Virus record (IMG/VR): IMGVR_UViG_2737471821_000012
Coordinates: 1 to 35,193 of that record
Direction: 5' to 3' (one strand)
From: a virus
Lineage: Duplodnaviria; Heunggongvirae; Uroviricota; Caudoviricetes
Length of the DNA: 35,193 nt
The notes beneath the pieces were generated by a model. That model made no database searches. It had not been told where the DNA came from and was given only the letters and a program-made list of their open reading frames with translations. Positions 24,860 through 29,876 of the stretch are shown here, piece after piece (position 1 is the first letter of the stretch; each line of letters begins with the position of its first letter). Position numbers and translations under genes: made by a program.

Positions 24860-25007
24860 GCTTCACTCCTGCTTTGGCTAGTCTGTAAACACCAACAAGG
24901 CGCTCTGCGAACGCCCTGTTATTTGCTGCGGCTACCACTAATCCCTCAGGTGAATCAGGGTGTCGAATCTCTTCTTTTTCCTGGTATTTCTTACGACGTT
25001 TTGTCAT
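24846..25007 (-). CDS. Small basic hypothetical protein (53 aa) between cII and the O-like gene
   Basis: Hand translation MTKRRKKYQEKEEIRHPDSPEGLVVAAANNRAFAERLVGVYRLAKAGVKHGRR; AGGAG 5 nt upstream of the ATG at 25007; overlaps the O-like start. Confidence 0.4.
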   Translation of the reverse strand: MTKRRKKYQEKEEIRHPDSPEGLVVAAANNRAFAERLVGVYRLAKAGVKHGRR

Positions 25008-25041
25008 AATGACTCCTGTGGATTGATCCAGTCTTTCTACA

Positions 25042-25320
25042 TCAGGCCTCGAAGAATTCGCCGTTCTTCGGGGCTTTTTCTTTTGTCAGCATTCTGGCTA
25101 CTTGCTTAGCCAGTTCCGCCAACTCCTCGTCTTCAACACCCCATTCAAGAACAGCAAGAAGCATTCCCATTTTGGGGATGAAGCTGTCTTTCCATCGCGA
25201 AATTTGCGATTCATTAATCCCTAACGCGTCGGCAACCTTTCGCTGACCACGTACAGCAATTCGATTCAGGATGTTGCTTGTAATTGCATTCGCTTTCTTG
25301 CGAGTACTTGTAAGTTGCAT
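25042..25320 (-). CDS. cII: CII transcriptional activator
   Basis: 92 aa; core SQISRWK...IPKMGMLLAVLEWGVEDEELAELAKQVA closely matches lambda CII as recalled. Confidence 0.9.
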   Translation of the reverse strand: MQLTSTRKKANAITSNILNRIAVRGQRKVADALGINESQISRWKDSFIPKMGMLLAVLEWGVEDEELAELAKQVARMLTKEKAPKNGEFFEA

Positions 25321-25378
25321 ATGTAAGTATTTCCTTAACTAATAAGAAGTTATGCGCATCAACTTATGCGCGTTGTAT

Positions 25379-25422
25379 TCCCGCATTTCGGCGGGAATGA
25401 GGACCATGACTGTTAAAGAGCG
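25379..25422 (-). promoter_or_regulatory. nutR (boxA plus boxB)
   Basis: On the minus strand, boxA CGCTCTTTAACA (plus 25411-25422) then boxB hairpin TTCCCGCCGAAATGCGGGAA (plus 25379-25398), between cro and cII. Confidence 0.6.
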
Positions 25423-25428
25423 GTGTTA

Positions 25429-25623
25429 CTATTTGTTTTTCTTGTTGCTTGGGAAAGGACGAACTTCCTCTCCAATCACACTGCCATCAGGCTTTACCGT
25501 AACCATAATGTTACGGCCTGCCAGAATGGCCTTACTGATAGCGCACTGGATTACACCAAAGTCACTGGCTGCTTTAGCCTGTCCATGGATTTTGGCGTAA
25601 TCGGCAAGTGTCATTCGAATCAT
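25429..25623 (-). CDS. cro: Cro repressor
   Basis: ORF 25429..25629; probable ATG at 25623 with GGAGAG upstream; sequence ...[45 protein letters not shown]...FPSNKK resembles lambda Cro as recalled. Confidence 0.85.
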
Positions 25624-25629
25624 ATGCAC

Positions 25630-25729
25630 TCTCCGTTATTAACCATGAACAAAGAATACCACAGGTATTCAAAGCAATCAATACTCAGGGTATTTTTAGT
25701 TTAAGTACCTTAGCTATTAGAATTAAGCT
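25630..25729. promoter_or_regulatory. Right operator/promoter region (OR) between divergent cro and cI
   Basis: Contains the 17-bp palindrome GAATACC-ACA-GGTATTC (25654-25670) and a related site AATACTCAGGGTATT (about 25679-25693); cI starts at 25730 with no evident Shine-Dalgarno, consistent with a leaderless transcript. Confidence 0.6.
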
Positions 25730-26446
25730 ATGGAAAATAAAAAATCACTGACGACAGAACAGCTCGAAGACGCTAAGCGGCTTAAGGCTTTGTATGAGTC
25801 AAAAAAGAAAGAATTGGGAATAACCCAATACTCAATCGCTGATGAACTGGGTATCACCCAAGGAGCGGTAGGGCATTATCTTAATGGCAGAAACGCGCTA
25901 AACGTTGAGGTCGCATCTGGTTTTGCACGTTTGTTGCAAGTCTCAATTGCTGATTTTAGCCAGTCAATTGCTGCCAAGGTTGCAGAACAGGCAGAAAGCC
26001 TTAAGAGCGATGCCAACGTAAGGTATGCAGGGGAATACAGAGCAGGAAAGAGGTATCCGGTGTTAAGCAGTATCCAGGCTGGCTCGTGGTGTGAAGCATG
26101 CGAACCATACACCATTAAAGACATAGATGTTTGGCTTGAGTCTGACGCGCATATTCAAGGTAATGCGTTCTGGCTTAAAGTGGAAGGTGATTCAATGACG
26201 GCACCGGTTGGGTTAAGCATTCCAGAGGGAACATTCGTTCTTTTCGATACCGGAAGGGAGGCGATCAACGGCAGCTTGGTCATAGCAAAACTTTCTGACT
26301 CTAACGAAGCAACATTCAAGAAGCTGATAATCGACGGCGGAAATAAATACCTCAAGGGACTTAATCCTGCATGGCCTCTCGTGCCAATCAATGGAAACTG
26401 CAAGATTATAGGCGTTGCAATTGAGACAAAACTAAGGCTGGTTTGA
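25730..26446 (+). CDS. cI: CI repressor (HTH N-terminal domain, S24 LexA-like autopeptidase C-terminal domain)
   Basis: 238 aa; HTH region (QYSIADELGITQGAVGHYLNG), GDSM catalytic Ser motif and downstream Lys; divergent from cro. Confidence 0.9.
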   Translation: MENKKSLTTEQLEDAKRLKALYESKKKELGITQYSIADELGITQGAVGHYLNGRNALNVEVASGFARLLQVSIADFSQSIAAKVAEQAESLKSDANVRYAGEYRAGKRYPVLSSIQAGSWCEACEPYTIKDIDVWLESDAHIQGNAFWLKVEGDSMTAPVGLSIPEGTFVLFDTGREAINGSLVIAKLSDSNEATFKKLIIDGGNKYLKGLNPAWPLVPINGNCKIIGVAIETKLRLV

Positions 26447-26463
26447 TCACGCAAGGGGCGATT

Positions 26464-26832
26464 ATGGTTGGAACCGCTATAGCAAGCTTTTTTGGGATGT
26501 TGGCAATCTCGACAATTTACGGCTTAGCGCATGCTTTTATTGCGAAATCTCTATCAGAAAAAATAAGCCAGGCTTGGGCGCATAGATCAGCTCGTTTCAT
26601 GATTCTGGTGATCATAGCAATACAAGGGATATCTGCATTTATCCTCTATGGATCAAGCTTATACCTATTGTATCAAGGCGCGACATTTACGCCTTACACC
26701 AGTGATTACGGAACTCTATACGATGGTAGTGAAGACATCACTGTGGCTTGGATCGTCTTTGGTTTATCTATGGCCGTGTCTGTTGTAGCAGACATCATTA
26801 AGGTAATTCTCGTCTTAACCTTCGCTGACTAA
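26464..26832 (+). CDS. Polytopic membrane protein co-transcribed with cI, unknown function
   Basis: ORF track 26443..26832 (TTG); likely ATG at 26464 with AAGGGG upstream, 17 nt after the cI stop; about three hydrophobic helices. Confidence 0.55.
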   Translation: MVGTAIASFFGMLAISTIYGLAHAFIAKSLSEKISQAWAHRSARFMILVIIAIQGISAFILYGSSLYLLYQGATFTPYTSDYGTLYDGSEDITVAWIVFGLSMAVSVVADIIKVILVLTFAD

Positions 26833-26961
26833 CCTATAATCCCGGCAGCAATAGCTATCGGGATCCACTTCACATATCCCGCATAAAAAGCACTGAACAA
26901 GCAGACACCGAAAAAATAAATATCCTTTGTATTCATTTGCTTATCATTATTTCATCAAAAA

Positions 26962-27005
26962 TAAATACCTTGGGTATTTACACAATAAAATACCTACAGT
27001 ATTCT
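26962..27005. promoter_or_regulatory. Left operator region (OL)
   Basis: Palindrome TAAATACC-TTG-GGTATTTA (26962-26980) and related site AAAATACCTACAGTATTCT (26987-27005), sharing the AATACC half-site with OR. Confidence 0.55.
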
Positions 27006-27050
27006 TTAGCCATCAGCAGGACGCTGGTAGCCAAACGGAACAGATTGGCA

Positions 27051-27092
27051 GGCTCTTTAACATTGATGGGATTGTCCCGCCGAAATGCGGGA
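27051..27092 (+). promoter_or_regulatory. nutL (boxA plus boxB)
   Basis: boxA GGCTCTTTAACA (27051-27062) then boxB hairpin TCCCGCCGAAATGCGGGA (27075-27092); the boxB RNA is identical to that of nutR. Confidence 0.6.
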
Positions 27093-27199
27093 ACCAAAGA
27101 GTAGTTGGCTTTGGGGTGACGTGAAGTGCAGCTGCACGACGGCAACCGGAAGATAAGCACCCGGCGCGTCACCGCCAAAGTCAATCATCGGAGGTCAAC

Positions 27200-27499
27200 A
27201 TGACAGTAGTCATTACATATCTGGCTGACGATAACGCCAGAAATCGCCGCAGAGCACGCAGACAGGCTCAACGTGAACAGGCAATGCAAGAGCAGCGACT
27301 GGCGCGAAAAATTGCGCTAAAGCTCTCTGGTTGCGTCAGAGCAGATAAAGCAGCATCACTCGGAAGCCTTCGCTGCAAGAAGGCAGAAGAAGTCGAGCGT
27401 AAACAGAATCGTATTTACTACCGCAAGCCACGCAGTGAAATGGGTGTGACTTGCTCAGGCCGCCAGAAAATGAAATTAGGCAGCAAACCACTTATTTGA
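27200..27499 (+). CDS. N: Antitermination protein N
   Basis: 99 aa; arginine-rich motif NARNRRRARRQAQ near the N-terminus; C-terminus RKQNRIYYRKPRSEMGVTCSGRQKMKLGSKPLI closely resembles lambda N as recalled. Confidence 0.85.
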   Translation: MTVVITYLADDNARNRRRARRQAQREQAMQEQRLARKIALKLSGCVRADKAASLGSLRCKKAEEVERKQNRIYYRKPRSEMGVTCSGRQKMKLGSKPLI

Positions 27500-27507
27500 G
27501 GTGAGAT

Positions 27508-27978
27508 ATGACAAAATCATGGAGCGTACCTTTTCCTGAATCAGAAACTGAACATGATGGAATGCCTGTTTTCTGGAGATTCCAGGCGACAGTTGAAGAA
27601 GATGGGATAAAAATATTCGCACTTCAATATATAGCTTTTCATCAGACAGAGCATTATGCATGGTTGGTTCCTGCGCATTGGATTGTTAATTTTAAACCAG
27701 CACCAAATCAGTGGTTACAGGAATGGAAACAAAGGAGAAATAGATATGCAATTAAGAAAGTAGCAAAAAATGCAGAAAGATCTTTTGCATTCCCAACGAA
27801 GAAACTTGCCATTGAGAGTTTATTGCGCCGGAAGAAATACCATTTAATGAGAATCAAACAAGATTTGGCTGTTGTATCAACTCTTGTTGATGGGATGAAG
27901 AATATTGATACATCAACACCAGATATTGAATATAACTTTGGACACAACCAAGAAACAGAAAATTGGGTATTCTACTAG
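27508..27978 (+). CDS. Hypothetical protein, AT-rich cargo gene immediately downstream of N
   Basis: 156-aa ORF 8 nt after the N stop; visibly AT-rich compared with flanking phage genes; followed by a terminator-like hairpin. Confidence 0.5.
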   Translation: MTKSWSVPFPESETEHDGMPVFWRFQATVEEDGIKIFALQYIAFHQTEHYAWLVPAHWIVNFKPAPNQWLQEWKQRRNRYAIKKVAKNAERSFAFPTKKLAIESLLRRKKYHLMRIKQDLAVVSTLVDGMKNIDTSTPDIEYNFGHNQETENWVFY

Positions 27979-27980
27979 GC

Positions 27981-28007
27981 CGCATAGTCGGCCTTTATTT
28001 TTGGCAT
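27981..28007 (+). terminator. Rho-independent terminator-like hairpin
   Basis: GGCCG-CATAGT-CGGCC followed by TTTATTTTTGG. Confidence 0.5.
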
Positions 28008-28321: not shown

Positions 28322-28530
28322 TGTGCGAGTTTTATGAAGCAGATATCAAACGCCCAGAAATGGCAAGTGATGCGACATTACGTGATTACTTCGCTGCTAA
28401 GGCTATGGCAGCAATAGTGCGCAGATGGGACGGACATTCCTTTGGCGGTGGACAGAATTCACCACAGTACAAAGAATTAGCAGATGATGCCTACTTTATT
28501 GCTGATGCCATGCTCAAAGCTCGCGAATAA
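28318..28530 (+). CDS. Hypothetical protein
   Basis: 70-aa ORF translationally coupled to the upstream 98-aa ORF (ATGA overlap at 28318-28321). Confidence 0.5.
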
Positions 28531-28626
28531 GCACTGTGTATTCATTCCAACGAGTGAATACACGGAGCAATGTCGCTCGTAACTAAACAGGAGCCGACTT
28601 GTTCTGATTATTGGAAATCTTCTTTG

Positions 28627-28872
28627 CCCTCCATCACCGCCCCCGGTATCCCGCTCATGCTGGCGAACCCAGACACGCAGAGTCTCCGGCGTACAGCCAA
28701 TCTTTGGAGCAATGGAACAAATTGTCGCCCATTGTGAGTCATATTCGCTCTGACTTTCCAGAACCATACGGACTGCCCGTTGACGGACTTCGGGGGAAAA
28801 ACGAGTATTTTTAGTCATCCTGTTTACCTCTTTCTCAGGAAGTTTAGTCTCCAGGATTCCCGGGGCGGTTCA
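28627..28872 (-). mobile_element. Truncated IS3-family element (IS629/IS1203-like): left terminal repeat plus the first ~64 codons of orfA
   Basis: Minus strand reads TGAACCGCCCCGGGAATCCTGGAGACTAAACTTCCTGAGAAAGAGGTAAACAGG ATG ACT AAA AAT ACT...; ORF 28477..28818 begins [23 protein letters not shown]...[14 protein letters not shown] as in IS3-family OrfA (recalled), then diverges into unrelated sequence. Confidence 0.75.
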
Positions 28873-28907: not shown

Positions 28908-29876
28908 ATGAGTGAAGTAACAGATTTAGTTGTTATTGAAAAAGCAAATGCAATGACTGTATTTCAGTCTGCCGACCAGATTGAAGAAATCCTTCAAAAG
29001 GTTGAACATGAAGTTATGTCCTTTGTGCCTGATATCACAACGGCAAAGGGCAGAAAGGAGATCGCTTCTCTGGCGTATAAAGTTGCGCAGACGAAAACAT
29101 ATCTCGATGGTCTTGGCAAAGACCTTGTTGCTGAACTGAAGGAAATTCCAAAGCTAATTGATGCCAACCGCAAGACAGTGCGTGATCGCCTTGATGAGCT
29201 GAAAGCCAAGGCACGCCAGCCTCTTACTGATTATGAGGAAGAACAGGCACGGATTAAAGCCGAAGAAGAAGCTAAGGCAGCAGCTGAAGCTCTCGCAAAG
29301 CAAATTGAGTCTGACCATGAAATAGCGATTTTGATGGATCGCGAATTTGACCGCCAAAGAGAAGAGGCAAGACTCAAAGCGGAGCAGGAAAAGCGAGAGC
29401 ATGAAGAACGCTTAAAAAGAGAAGCTGAAGAGAAAGCCAGAGCAGAAGCCGAAGCAAAGGCAAAAGCCCAAATTGAAGCAGCAGCAAGGCGAGAAGCAGA
29501 AGCTAAGGCCGCAGCGGAACGTGCAGAGCGTGAACGCATTGAAGCCGAGCAACGAGCACAGCGCGAAGCAAAAGAGGCAGCAGAACAAGCTGAAAGAGAA
29601 AAGCAGGCGGCAATTGAAGCAGAACGCCGAAAAGCACAGGAGGAGGCTGAACGAATCCGGCGCGAGGCTGAAGCAAAAGAGCAAGCCAGAATAGCAGAAG
29701 AAAAAAGAATCAAGGACGAAGAAGAGCACAGAGCAAAGGATAAAGATCACCGGAAAGAAGTAAATAACAAAATACTTGCTGACCTTATCAAGGTTGGCGC
29801 ATCAGAAGATGTTGCTAAAAATATCATAACAGCCATCGTAAAAGGCGAAGTATTCGCAACAAAAATAACCTACTAA
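28908..29876 (+). CDS. Highly charged coiled-coil protein (Glu/Ala/Lys/Arg-rich repeats), unknown function
   Basis: 322 aa; ordinary N-terminal ~100 aa, then ~170 aa of low-complexity EAKA/REAE repeats, then a short C-terminal domain; the repeats create several spurious overlapping ORFs on both strands. Confidence 0.65.
   Translation: MSEVTDLVVIEKANAMTVFQSADQIEEILQKVEHEVMSFVPDITTAKGRKEIASLAYKVAQTKTYLDGLGKDLVAELKEIPKLIDANRKTVRDRLDELKAKARQPLTDYEEEQARIKAEEEAKAAAEALAKQIESDHEIAILMDREFDRQREEARLKAEQEKREHEERLKREAEEKARAEAEAKAKAQIEAAARREAEAKAAAERAERERIEAEQRAQREAKEAAEQAEREKQAAIEAERRKAQEEAERIRREAEAKEQARIAEEKRIKDEEEHRAKDKDHRKEVNNKILADLIKVGASEDVAKNIITAIVKGEVFATKITY

What the first reader, a model, noticed from the sequence alone, without database searches (positions are those of the whole stretch)
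26443..26832. Polytopic membrane protein fused to the cI transcription unit
A roughly 122-aa protein with about three hydrophobic helices starts 17 nt after the cI stop with its own Shine-Dalgarno, on the cI strand and before OL. This is the slot lambda uses for rexA/rexB, so it is predicted to be made continuously in lysogens. A lone small membrane protein here, without a RexA-like partner, is a candidate exclusion or abortive-infection determinant.
Basis: partly seen in the sequence, partly recalled or inferred. Interest (0 to 1): 0.55.

Follow-up and report, generated by a model that had tools for sequence, protein, structure and literature searches.

The report
Orphan membrane gene behind phage repressor
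A small three-helix membrane protein gene, already catalogued as hkaS ("unknown") in coliphage HK620, sits directly behind the prophage repressor gene in the slot where related phages keep rexAB, bstA and other defence genes. It is real and conserved, and it is a reasonable but untested candidate for a new single-gene phage-exclusion factor.

Summary
Window 26464-26832 (+) encodes a 122-aa protein that starts 17 nt after the cI stop, behind a Shine-Dalgarno site, and ends before OL/pL. It has three long hydrophobic helices.

It is the hkaS gene of phage HK620 (99% identical, annotated "unknown"; PHROG 6534, unknown function). The family is a true orphan: 12 clusters among 5.8 billion proteins, one full-length representative among 1.84 billion, and no Pfam, NCBIfam, PADLOC, PDB or fold match.

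It is under purifying selection (dN/dS about 0.14), and its length is fixed at 121-122 aa. All 72 loci whose cI is at least 86% identical carry it, always 17-20 nt after cI. Every lineage has a hairpin after the stop.

In prophages with equally similar cI C-terminal domains, the same slot holds RexA+RexB. More distant cI relatives carry BstA or PADLOC candidate systems there. So the "rex slot" reading is directly supported, and location argues for an anti-phage role.

Expression in lysogens and any exclusion phenotype remain inferred. HkaS is not homologous to RexB, SieA or SieB. My best guess is an inner-membrane exclusion protein. Verdict: a known but uncharacterised gene, a new member of a known kind of locus, of moderate interest.

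The parts
25429..25623 (-). cro, divergent from cI
   Evidence: HK620 annotation transferred with a constant offset of 23939. Homologous ORFs in relatives carry PF09048 Cro. The ORF listing shows the frame ending at 25429.
25654..25719 (.). OR1 (25654-25670), OR2 (25679-25695), OR3 (25703-25719). A pRM-like promoter was read from the sequence: -35 TTTAGT 25695-25700, -10 TAGAAT 25718-25723, which would put +1 at about the A of the cI ATG (leaderless cI, as in lambda).
   Evidence: Operators come from the HK620 record and the palindromes GAATACCACAGGTATTC etc. are visible. The pRM hexamers are my own reading (inference). They fall below the scan's threshold.
25730..26446 (+). cI repressor (238 aa; HTH_3 plus Peptidase_S24)
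   Evidence: Pfam HTH_3 8.1e-10 and Peptidase_S24 5.2e-24; PHROG 4 transcriptional repressor; annotated cI in HK620.
26453..26458 (+). Shine-Dalgarno site of hkaS (AAGGGG)
   Evidence: Purine-rich SD 5-9 nt before the ATG in 7 lineages.
26464..26832 (+). hkaS: 122-aa, three-helix predicted inner-membrane protein (PHROG 6534). This is the finding.
26839..26864 (+). GC-rich stem-loop 7 nt after the hkaS stop. Probable 3' end or terminator of the cI-hkaS transcript, but it has no U-tract in this lineage.
   Evidence: RNA fold -13.7 kcal/mol, z = -2.5. Hairpins of different sequence sit at the same place in L002, L006, L008, L153 and L035. The L035 hairpin is followed by TTTTTTATT.
26918..26934 (.). 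Operator-like palindrome AAATATCCTTTGTATTC (a third OL-type site). It overlaps what the HK620 record calls terminator 'tIMM' (26914-26944).
   Evidence: The half-sites AAATA...TATTC are conserved while the centre varies in L002, L006 and L008. Compare OL2 AAATACCTTGGGTATTT. Interpretation inferred.
26963..27005 (+). OL2 (26963-26979), OL1 (26988-27004), pL (-35 TTTACA 26977-26982, -10 TATTCT 27000-27005)
   Evidence: HK620 annotation; promoter scan hit.
27200..27499 (+). N antiterminator, first gene of the pL operon. It marks the far edge of the slot.
   Evidence: PHROG 271 N-like 6.8e-37; arginine-rich N-terminus.

Best explanation
Shown: hkaS is a genuine, selectively maintained gene. It encodes a 122-aa protein with three hydrophobic helices. 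It is the second and last cistron behind cI, ends in a stem-loop, and lies in the variable accessory slot between the repressor gene and OL/pL/N. Sister prophages fill that slot with RexAB, BstA or other defence candidates.

Inferred: the gene is transcribed with cI from pRM in lysogens, and from pRE during establishment. It is translated from its own strong SD, whereas cI looks leaderless. The protein inserts in the inner membrane N-out/C-in. That places a basic cytoplasmic loop at residues 28-44, an acidic, aromatic periplasmic beta-hairpin loop at 71-94, and an invariant Asp110/Lys113 pair inside TM3.

Proposed function: a stand-alone, prophage-expressed exclusion protein that protects the lysogen from other phages by acting in the inner membrane. 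The most likely mode is interference with genome delivery across that membrane. P22 SieA (also a 3-TM protein), HK97 gp15, T4 Imm and lactococcal Sie2009 work this way. The alternative would be to kill the infected cell.
For: Gene reality: dN/dS 0.135, no indels, 30 intact variants.

Operon anatomy: a 17-20 nt gap and SD in every lineage; no promoter or terminator consensus between cI and the gene; a hairpin after the stop in six lineages, with a canonical terminator in L035.

Membrane protein: KD profile and charge distribution; AF2 pLDDT 89.

Slot identity: all 72 loci with cI at least 86% identical carry hkaS, against 1 of 95 loci with cI below 80%. Loci with equally similar cI C-terminal domains (87-89%) carry hkaS, or RexA+RexB (L011), or an orphan. 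Five of 10 tested occupants from nine other loci hit PADLOC defence models strongly: RexA, RexB, BstA 1.2e-115, PDC-S42 1e-84 and PDC-M03A 5e-119. A sixth, PDC-M63A, scores 8e-45.

Literature: the repressor-to-N region is a recognised accessory/defence locus, and bstA is transcribed from the cI promoter in BTP1 lysogens (PMC7067206; bioRxiv 10.1101/2024.02.24.581848). Genes downstream of cI are lysogen-specific in Phi24B (PMC3342100). In LF82 prophage Perceval, cI and its two downstream genes are transcribed in lysogens (PMC9928086). P22 SieA is a 3-TM inner-membrane protein that blocks DNA delivery (PMC10883804).

Single small membrane proteins with no partner most often act at entry. This last point rests on my knowledge of Imm, gp15, Sie2009 and SieA.
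Against: There are no expression or phenotype data for hkaS. No open paper mentions hkaS together with HK620.

There is no sequence or profile similarity to RexB, SieA or SieB (hhalign probabilities 0.6, 0.3 and 0.1%). There is no PADLOC, Pfam or NCBIfam hit, and the fold searches return only generic helical bundles.

The cassette travels with the immunity module through phages of different virion types: Lederbergvirus HK620, Lambdavirus HK630, Shamshuipovirus mEpX2 and Stx2c phages. It is therefore not matched to one ejection apparatus.

The most conserved parts are the cytoplasmic loop and the C-terminal end of TM3. That could equally point to a conserved host partner and a non-defence role.

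Not all occupants of the slot are defence genes. Examples are an MscS-like channel, DUF1275 and a Tlde1-domain protein.
Confidence: 0.4

Rival explanations
1. Abortive infection by a lone membrane effector. HkaS oligomerises into, or gates, an ion-conducting pore that depolarises the cell when an incoming phage perturbs it. It would be a RexB-like executioner that needs no RexA-type sensor.
For: It occupies exactly the position of rexAB, and RexAB is its alternative in L011. BstA, another abortive-infection protein, also occupies the slot (PMC7067206). Invariant polar or charged residues lie inside the predicted helices: Q54, D110 and K113. The conserved TM3 residues W96, F99, D110 and K113, plus mostly conserved S106, are spaced as on one helical face, as expected for a pore or oligomer interface.
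Against: There is no homology to RexB (0.6%). HkaS has three helices rather than four, and no candidate sensor is conserved nearby. A constitutively made pore-former would need a trigger, and nothing suggests one. Lone small membrane proteins that act as abortive-infection effectors are rarer than entry blockers (my knowledge).
Confidence: 0.15
2. Lysogenic conversion unrelated to phages. HkaS modulates or protects a host envelope function. It could act as an immunity protein against a pore-forming bacteriocin or contact-dependent toxin, or as a small regulator of a transporter or sensor kinase, improving lysogen fitness.
For: The slot also hosts non-defence-looking cargo in relatives: an MscS-like channel (L033), DUF1275 (L013) and a Tlde1-domain protein (L036). 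Size and three-helix layout resemble small inner-membrane immunity proteins (my knowledge). The cytoplasmic face is the most conserved. The gene is present in 146 of 5426 complete E. coli genomes, including STEC.
Against: No hit to any immunity-protein or transporter family. Never found on plasmids. No toxin gene is linked to it. The family is confined to one immunity-module lineage.
Confidence: 0.2
3. A lysogeny-switch accessory. Made with cI from pRE and pRM, HkaS acts on a membrane-bound host factor such as FtsH/HflKC, or senses envelope state, to stabilise establishment or maintenance of lysogeny or to tune induction.
For: Retention is strict with this cI lineage (72 of 72 loci) even after synonymous sites have saturated. 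It is linked to the cI C-terminal domain even where the DNA-binding domain, cro and operators were swapped (L035). Lambda RexA itself biases the switch (abstract of PMC11077077, listed).
Against: Equally similar cI C-terminal domains work with RexAB, with an orphan protein or with nothing in the slot, and P22 c2 has an empty slot. So the repressor does not need HkaS. HkaS evolves about four times faster than cI in amino-acid sequence, and no co-variation with cI was seen.
Confidence: 0.12
4. Not a functional gene: a hydrophobic ORF maintained by chance or by constraints on an overlapping RNA or DNA element.
For: None beyond the lack of any annotation or homologue of known function.
Against: dN/dS 0.135; fixed length; conserved SD and start; 52-83% identical homologues in Salmonella, Hafnia-type and Buttiauxella prophages at saturated dS; confident AF2 model.
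Confidence: 0.02

Closest known systems
Lambda RexB / the rexAB locus
   Same: Same genomic slot: same strand, directly downstream of cI, upstream of OL/pL/N. RexAB is the actual alternative occupant behind an 87%-identical cI C-terminal domain in L011. Both are small polytopic inner-membrane proteins expected to be made with the repressor.
   Different: No sequence or profile similarity (hhalign 0.6%; no PADLOC or Pfam RexB hit). HkaS has 122 aa and 3 helices; RexB has 144 aa and 4 helices (my knowledge). There is no RexA-like partner.
P22 SieA (superinfection exclusion A)
   Same: A single prophage-expressed inner-membrane protein predicted to have three transmembrane segments, carried by P22-like phages, that blocks DNA delivery (PMC10883804). 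This is the closest functional analogy for a lone 3-TM protein.
   Different: No homology (0.3%). SieA has 162-164 aa, its own promoter, and lies in the ant/immI moron next to gene 16, not in the cI operon. Any activity of HkaS is untested.
BstA (BTP1 and relatives)
   Same: Occupies the same cI-downstream slot, is transcribed from the cI promoter in lysogens (PMC7067206), and is found behind a related cI in L014.
   Different: BstA is a soluble protein of about 300 aa with a DNA-binding domain. It is unrelated in sequence, size and localisation.
Small entry-blocking membrane proteins of other phages (T4 Imm, HK97 gp15, lactococcal Sie2009)
   Same: Short membrane-anchored proteins that act alone at the cytoplasmic membrane against incoming phage DNA. 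Sie2009-type genes also lie next to the repressor (my knowledge; review PMC11436027 listed).
   Different: No PHROG or Pfam relationship. They differ in helix number and topology, and their targets are unknown for HkaS.
hkaS of HK620 / HkaS of HK630 / PHROG 6534
   Same: The same gene: 99.2% protein identity to HK620 hkaS and a full-length PHROG 6534 match at 2.4e-79.
   Different: Nothing of substance. Those entries carry no function either ('unknown', 'hypothetical protein').

Membership tests
HkaS family (PHROG 6534) | Full-length sequence match to the family profile | tested here: met
   phrog_6534 E 2.4e-79, residues 1-122 of 122. 99.2% identity to HK620 hkaS.
HkaS family (PHROG 6534) | Position 17-20 nt downstream of an HTH_3/Peptidase_S24 cI, with cro upstream and N downstream | tested here: met
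   True in the window and in all divergent homologues.
Repressor-to-N accessory (moron/defence) locus of lambdoid prophages | Same strand as cI, between the cI stop and OL/pL, no promoter of its own, terminator-like hairpin at the end | tested here: met
Repressor-to-N accessory (moron/defence) locus of lambdoid prophages | Content varies between otherwise related immunity modules and includes known defence genes | tested here: met
   RexAB, BstA, PDC-S42, PDC-M03A, PDC-M63A, NYN, orphans or nothing behind related cI genes. The slot is empty in P22.
Repressor-to-N accessory (moron/defence) locus of lambdoid prophages | Transcribed in the lysogen | not testable with these tools
   No transcriptome of an hkaS-carrying lysogen was found. 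There are only analogies (PMC7067206, PMC3342100, PMC9928086).
RexB (PF15968 / PADLOC RexB) | Sequence homology to RexB | tested here: not met
   hhalign probability 0.6% against the RexB of L011. No Pfam or PADLOC hit at E<=1.
RexB (PF15968 / PADLOC RexB) | Adjacent RexA partner | tested here: not met
   Only hkaS lies between cI and OL. The 35-aa antisense ORF is not conserved.
RexB (PF15968 / PADLOC RexB) | Infection-triggered membrane depolarisation | not testable with these tools
   Needs infection experiments.
P22 SieA | Sequence homology to SieA | tested here: not met
   hhalign probability 0.3%. No PHROG link.
P22 SieA | Three-TM inner-membrane protein | tested here: inconclusive
   Three hydrophobic helices are predicted, but localisation and topology were not measured and no dedicated TM predictor was available.
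P22 SieA | Blocks DNA delivery by ejection proteins | not testable with these tools
   Experimental.
P22 SieB | Sequence homology | tested here: not met
   hhalign probability 0.1%.
Class I holins (3 TM, N-out/C-in) | Location in the lysis cassette and a highly charged cytoplasmic C-terminal tail | tested here: not met
   The gene is in the immunity operon. The protein ends ...ILVLTFAD with no basic tail. No holin family hit.
Bacteriocin / pore-forming colicin immunity proteins | Family profile match, and linkage to a toxin gene or plasmid | tested here: not met
   No Pfam or NCBIfam hit. No plasmid copy among 72,556 plasmids. No toxin neighbour.

The most novel reading that the evidence does not exclude
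HkaS is a previously unrecognised, self-sufficient anti-phage system. A single 122-aa three-helix membrane protein would both sense an incoming phage at the inner membrane and stop it, by blocking entry or collapsing membrane potential. It would functionally replace the two-protein RexAB system in the same operon slot and define a new defence family confined to one immunity-module lineage of enterobacterial prophages.
Probability: 0.18. Interest if true: 0.65.

Novelty: new member of a known kind. Interest (0 to 1): 0.4.

Why it matters
The slot between the prophage repressor gene and N is one of the oldest known homes of phage-encoded defence (rexAB), and new systems such as BstA and HigBAC are still being found there. 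hkaS is an unusually compact occupant with no detectable relatives.

It is strictly kept by one repressor lineage, and it is carried into at least three virus genera and into Stx2c-converting phages. It is present in about 2.7% of complete E. coli genomes.

If it excludes phages, it would be a minimal membrane-based defence whose mechanism can be dissected with simple genetics. It would also be a determinant to watch when choosing therapeutic or typing phages for E. coli and STEC. If it does something else, it is a lysogenic-conversion factor made whenever the repressor is made. Either way, the test is cheap: one deletion and one plasmid.

Tried and rejected
1. A partner for hkaS in the 35-aa hydrophobic minus-strand ORF (26829-26936), which overlaps the hkaS stop. 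It is absent or unrelated in Salmonella, L006 and Hafnia-type loci, so I rejected it as a gene.
2. Remote homology. Pfam, PHROGs, NCBIfam and PADLOC, a 5.8-billion-protein word-indexed search, a full HMMER profile search of 1.84 billion representatives and a PDB sequence search found nothing outside the family. The sub-threshold Cation_ATPase_C (E 0.0035) and TssN hits are treated as compositional.
4. Profile-profile tests against RexB, SieA and SieB were negative.
5. Literature. 'hkaS' alone returns a herbarium acronym. hkaS plus HK620 returns nothing. The highly transcribed 'transmembrane protein' near cI in LF82 prophage Perceval is a different, 168-aa gene behind a 340-aa gene. The cI-embedded sRNA svsR (PMC12803456) is unrelated to this locus.
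6. Rfam scan of 25000-27700: only a chance snoRNA hit below threshold.
7. Plasmid search to test a bacteriocin-immunity link: no match.
8. GC content as a moron signature: hkaS 42.3%, cI 45.6%, window 47.8%. This is too small a difference to use.
Full report
**1. What is at the coordinates**

The window carries a lambdoid immunity region with these parts:
- cro (25429-25623, minus strand);
- three OR operators;
- cI (25730-26446, plus strand; HTH_3 plus Peptidase_S24);
- the ORF in question;
- OL operators and pL (26963-27005);
- N (27200-27499; PHROG 271).

The ORF listing reports the ORF as 26443-26832 with a TTG start that overlaps the cI stop. The sequence shows an ATG at 26464, 17 nt after the TGA of cI, preceded by AAGGGG. 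The SD-ATG pair is present in all seven lineages compared. The upstream TTG extension is not conserved.

**2. It is a membrane protein with three helices**

A 19-residue Kyte-Doolittle scan gives three hydrophobic stretches, at about 3-27, 45-70 and 95-120. AlphaFold2 on an 8-sequence alignment gives pLDDT 89.3 and pTM 0.76. The model has helices 2-29, 31-38, 41-74 and 89-121, and a beta-hairpin at 78-86.

- The first loop carries K28, K33, R41 and R44.
- The second loop carries D81, D87, E90 and D91.
- By the positive-inside rule (established knowledge), this predicts an N-out/C-in topology with the acidic, aromatic hairpin in the periplasm. This is an inference; no dedicated topology predictor was available.
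- Across eight lineages the invariant residues cluster in the cytoplasmic loop and the start of TM2 (K33, Q36, W38, H40, A43-F45, I47, L48, A52, Q54) and in the C-terminal part of TM3 (D110, K113, I115, L118-D122).
- The conserved TM3 residues (W96, F99, S106 in most lineages, D110, K113) are spaced as on one helical face.

**3. It is a known but uncharacterised gene**

- The 501 bases around it are 97.8-100% identical to 16 phage records.
- In the HK620 record the gene is "hkaS: unknown", in HK630 it is "HkaS protein", and elsewhere it is "hypothetical protein".
- It matches PHROG 6534 (unknown function) over its full length, E 2.4e-79.
- The exact protein is seen on at least 1000 public contigs, always unnamed.
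- It is in 146 of 5426 complete E. coli genomes, always chromosomal, and on no plasmid.
- No open-access paper mentions hkaS together with HK620.

**4. The family is an orphan**

- A search of 5.8 billion proteins found 12 clusters at 52-98% identity.
- A full HMMER profile search of 1.84 billion representatives found one full-length representative and one fragment.
- Pfam, NCBIfam and PADLOC give nothing above threshold, and the PDB sequence search gives nothing.
- Foldseek against viral and PDB structures gives no hit at E<=0.001.
- Profile-profile comparison with RexB, P22 SieA and P22 SieB gives probabilities of 0.6, 0.3 and 0.1%.

**5. It is a real gene under selection**

- Against the Hafnia-type homologue, dS is 0.69 and dN is 0.093, so dN/dS is 0.135. 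For cI in the same pair, dN/dS is 0.029.
- In more distant pairs the synonymous sites are saturated while the proteins stay 52-61% identical.
- Length is 121-122 aa in all lineages, with a single one-residue gap.
- The 30 variants found in about 74 loci are all intact.
- HkaS changes about four times faster than cI at the amino-acid level.

**6. Operon anatomy**

- In every homologue-bearing locus the gene starts 17-20 nt after the stop of a cI. Cro lies upstream and an N-type gene lies downstream.
- No sigma-70-like promoter and no terminator consensus lies between the cI start and pL.
- A stable stem-loop sits 7 nt after the hkaS stop (26839-26864, -13.7 kcal/mol, z = -2.5).
- Stem-loops of unrelated sequence occupy the same place in five other lineages. 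In the Buttiauxella locus it is a canonical intrinsic terminator, AACCCGGACTCCGATCCGGGTTTTTTATT. In the window's own lineage there is no U-tract, so termination efficiency is uncertain.
- Reading the sequence, a pRM-like -10 (TAGAAT, 25718-25723) would start the transcript at about the A of the cI ATG. cI would then be leaderless, as in lambda, while hkaS has a strong SD (my inference).

**7. The slot**

I fetched 160 loci encoding relatives of this cI.
- All 72 loci with cI at least 86% identical and enough downstream sequence carry hkaS. Of the 95 loci with cI below 80% identical, one does.
- That one, L035, has an unrelated N-terminal DNA-binding domain (21% identity), with different cro and operators. 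Its C-terminal domain is 88% identical, and hkaS (56% identical) follows it. So hkaS is linked to the 3' end of cI, not to operator specificity.
- Loci whose cI C-terminal domain is just as similar (87-89%) carry something else. L011 has RexA (Pfam 1.3e-96, PADLOC 1.7e-109) followed by RexB (1.2e-60). L165 has a 141-aa orphan. L010 has no convincing gene.
- Behind more distant cI relatives the slot holds BstA (1.2e-115), PDC-S42 (1e-84), PDC-M03A (5e-119, HipA-like), PDC-M63A (8e-45, DUF6932) or a NYN protein. It also holds Peptidase_M78, an MscS-like channel, DUF1275, a Tlde1-domain protein, several tiny membrane ORFs, or nothing.
- In P22 the slot is empty.

This shows directly that hkaS sits in the position homologous to rexAB, and that the position is a cassette-exchange site rich in defence genes.

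The literature says the same. It describes the repressor-to-N region as a common site of accessory loci, with bstA transcribed from the cI promoter in all conditions tested (PMC7067206). [quoted passage not shown] 2007). In Phi24B, genes downstream of cI are expressed only in stable lysogens (PMC3342100). In LF82 prophage Perceval, cI and the two genes after it, one of them a 168-aa transmembrane protein, are highly transcribed (PMC9928086). That gene is not hkaS.

**8. Mobility**

The cro-cI-hkaS cassette is found in a Lederbergvirus (HK620), a Lambdavirus (HK630), a Shamshuipovirus (mEpX2) and Stx2c-converting phages. The window itself is a P22-like mosaic. The gene therefore travels with the immunity module, independently of virion type.

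**9. How it most likely works**

Shown: a conserved protein with three hydrophobic helices, encoded as the distal cistron of the repressor operon, in a slot that sister phages use for defence.

Inferred: constitutive synthesis in lysogens, inner-membrane location and N-out/C-in topology.

Proposed (confidence about 0.4): a stand-alone exclusion protein acting in the inner membrane, most likely against genome delivery. This rests on analogy with the three-TM inner-membrane protein SieA (PMC10883804) and other lone small membrane proteins.

Rivals:
- a sensor-less RexB-like abortive-infection pore (0.15);
- a non-phage lysogenic-conversion or immunity function (0.2);
- a switch accessory acting on a membrane host factor (0.12);
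- a non-gene (0.02).

None of these can be separated by computation here. The conserved cytoplasmic face and the variable periplasmic loop and TM1 fit a conserved effector side with a fast-evolving recognition side. They fit a conserved host partner equally well.

**10. Verdict**

The gene has been in databases as "unknown" since the HK620 record AF335538, and the kind of locus is well known. It is therefore best classed as a new, uncharacterised member of a known kind of locus. Interest is moderate (0.4): a specialist would not be surprised by a moron in this slot. But a strictly retained orphan membrane protein that alternates with RexAB is a clean and cheap experimental target.

Noticed in passing
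window 26914-26944 (core 26918-26934): The stretch that the HK620 record annotates as terminator 'tIMM' contains no convincing hairpin. It does contain an operator-like palindrome, AAATATCCTTTGTATTC. Its half-sites are conserved and its centre varies in Salmonella, L006 and Hafnia-type loci, like OL1/OL2. The annotated OL3 (26941-26957) matches the operator consensus poorly. The real terminator-like hairpin is at 26839-26864.
   Followed up: partly
window 26829-26936 (minus strand) and 26927-27124 (plus strand): Two small ORFs lie in the hkaS-to-N spacer. One is a 35-aa hydrophobic antisense ORF whose stop overlaps the hkaS stop. The other is a 65-aa ORF that spans OL and is annotated 'hypothetical protein' in HK630. 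The 35-aa ORF is not conserved in divergent loci; the 65-aa ORF was not checked there. Both look spurious.
   Followed up: partly
window 28477-28818 (minus strand): A truncated IS3-family transposase OrfA fragment (HTH_Tnp_1, E 5e-7, first ~58 residues only) lies inside the pL operon. The related phage Sf6 carries IS911 in the matching region.
   Followed up: partly
window 27508-27978 and 27977-28003: A 156-aa ORF lies directly after N. It matches PHROG 1636 (unknown function) and has very low GC (36.5%, GC3 29%). It is followed by a canonical-looking intrinsic terminator (AGGCCGCATAGTCGGCCT + TTATTTTT). It looks like a separate moron in the early-left operon.
   Followed up: no
window 28908-29876: A 322-aa ORF with a long Glu/Ala/Lys/Arg-rich low-complexity core. 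RefSeq genomes label it 'TolA'-like. It has no Pfam hit.
   Followed up: no
L035 3007-4043 (uncultured Buttiauxella): This cI gene is a chimera. It has an unrelated N-terminal HTH domain (21% identity), with different cro and operators, joined to an 88%-identical S24 C-terminal domain plus hkaS. This implies a recombination joint inside cI, between its two domains.
   Followed up: yes
L036 3693-4226; L033 3885-5114; L013 3832-4614: Unusual cargo sits in the same cI-downstream slot of other Enterobacterales prophages: a Tlde1-domain (T6SS L,D-transpeptidase effector-like) protein, an MscS-family mechanosensitive channel homologue, and a DUF1275 membrane protein.
   Followed up: partly
window 27200-27499 versus HK620 N (L001 3261-3533): The window's N ORF is 99 aa whereas HK620's is 90 aa. 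The two phages share the immunity cassette, but the N ORF lengths differ, so they may diverge within or just after N.
   Followed up: no
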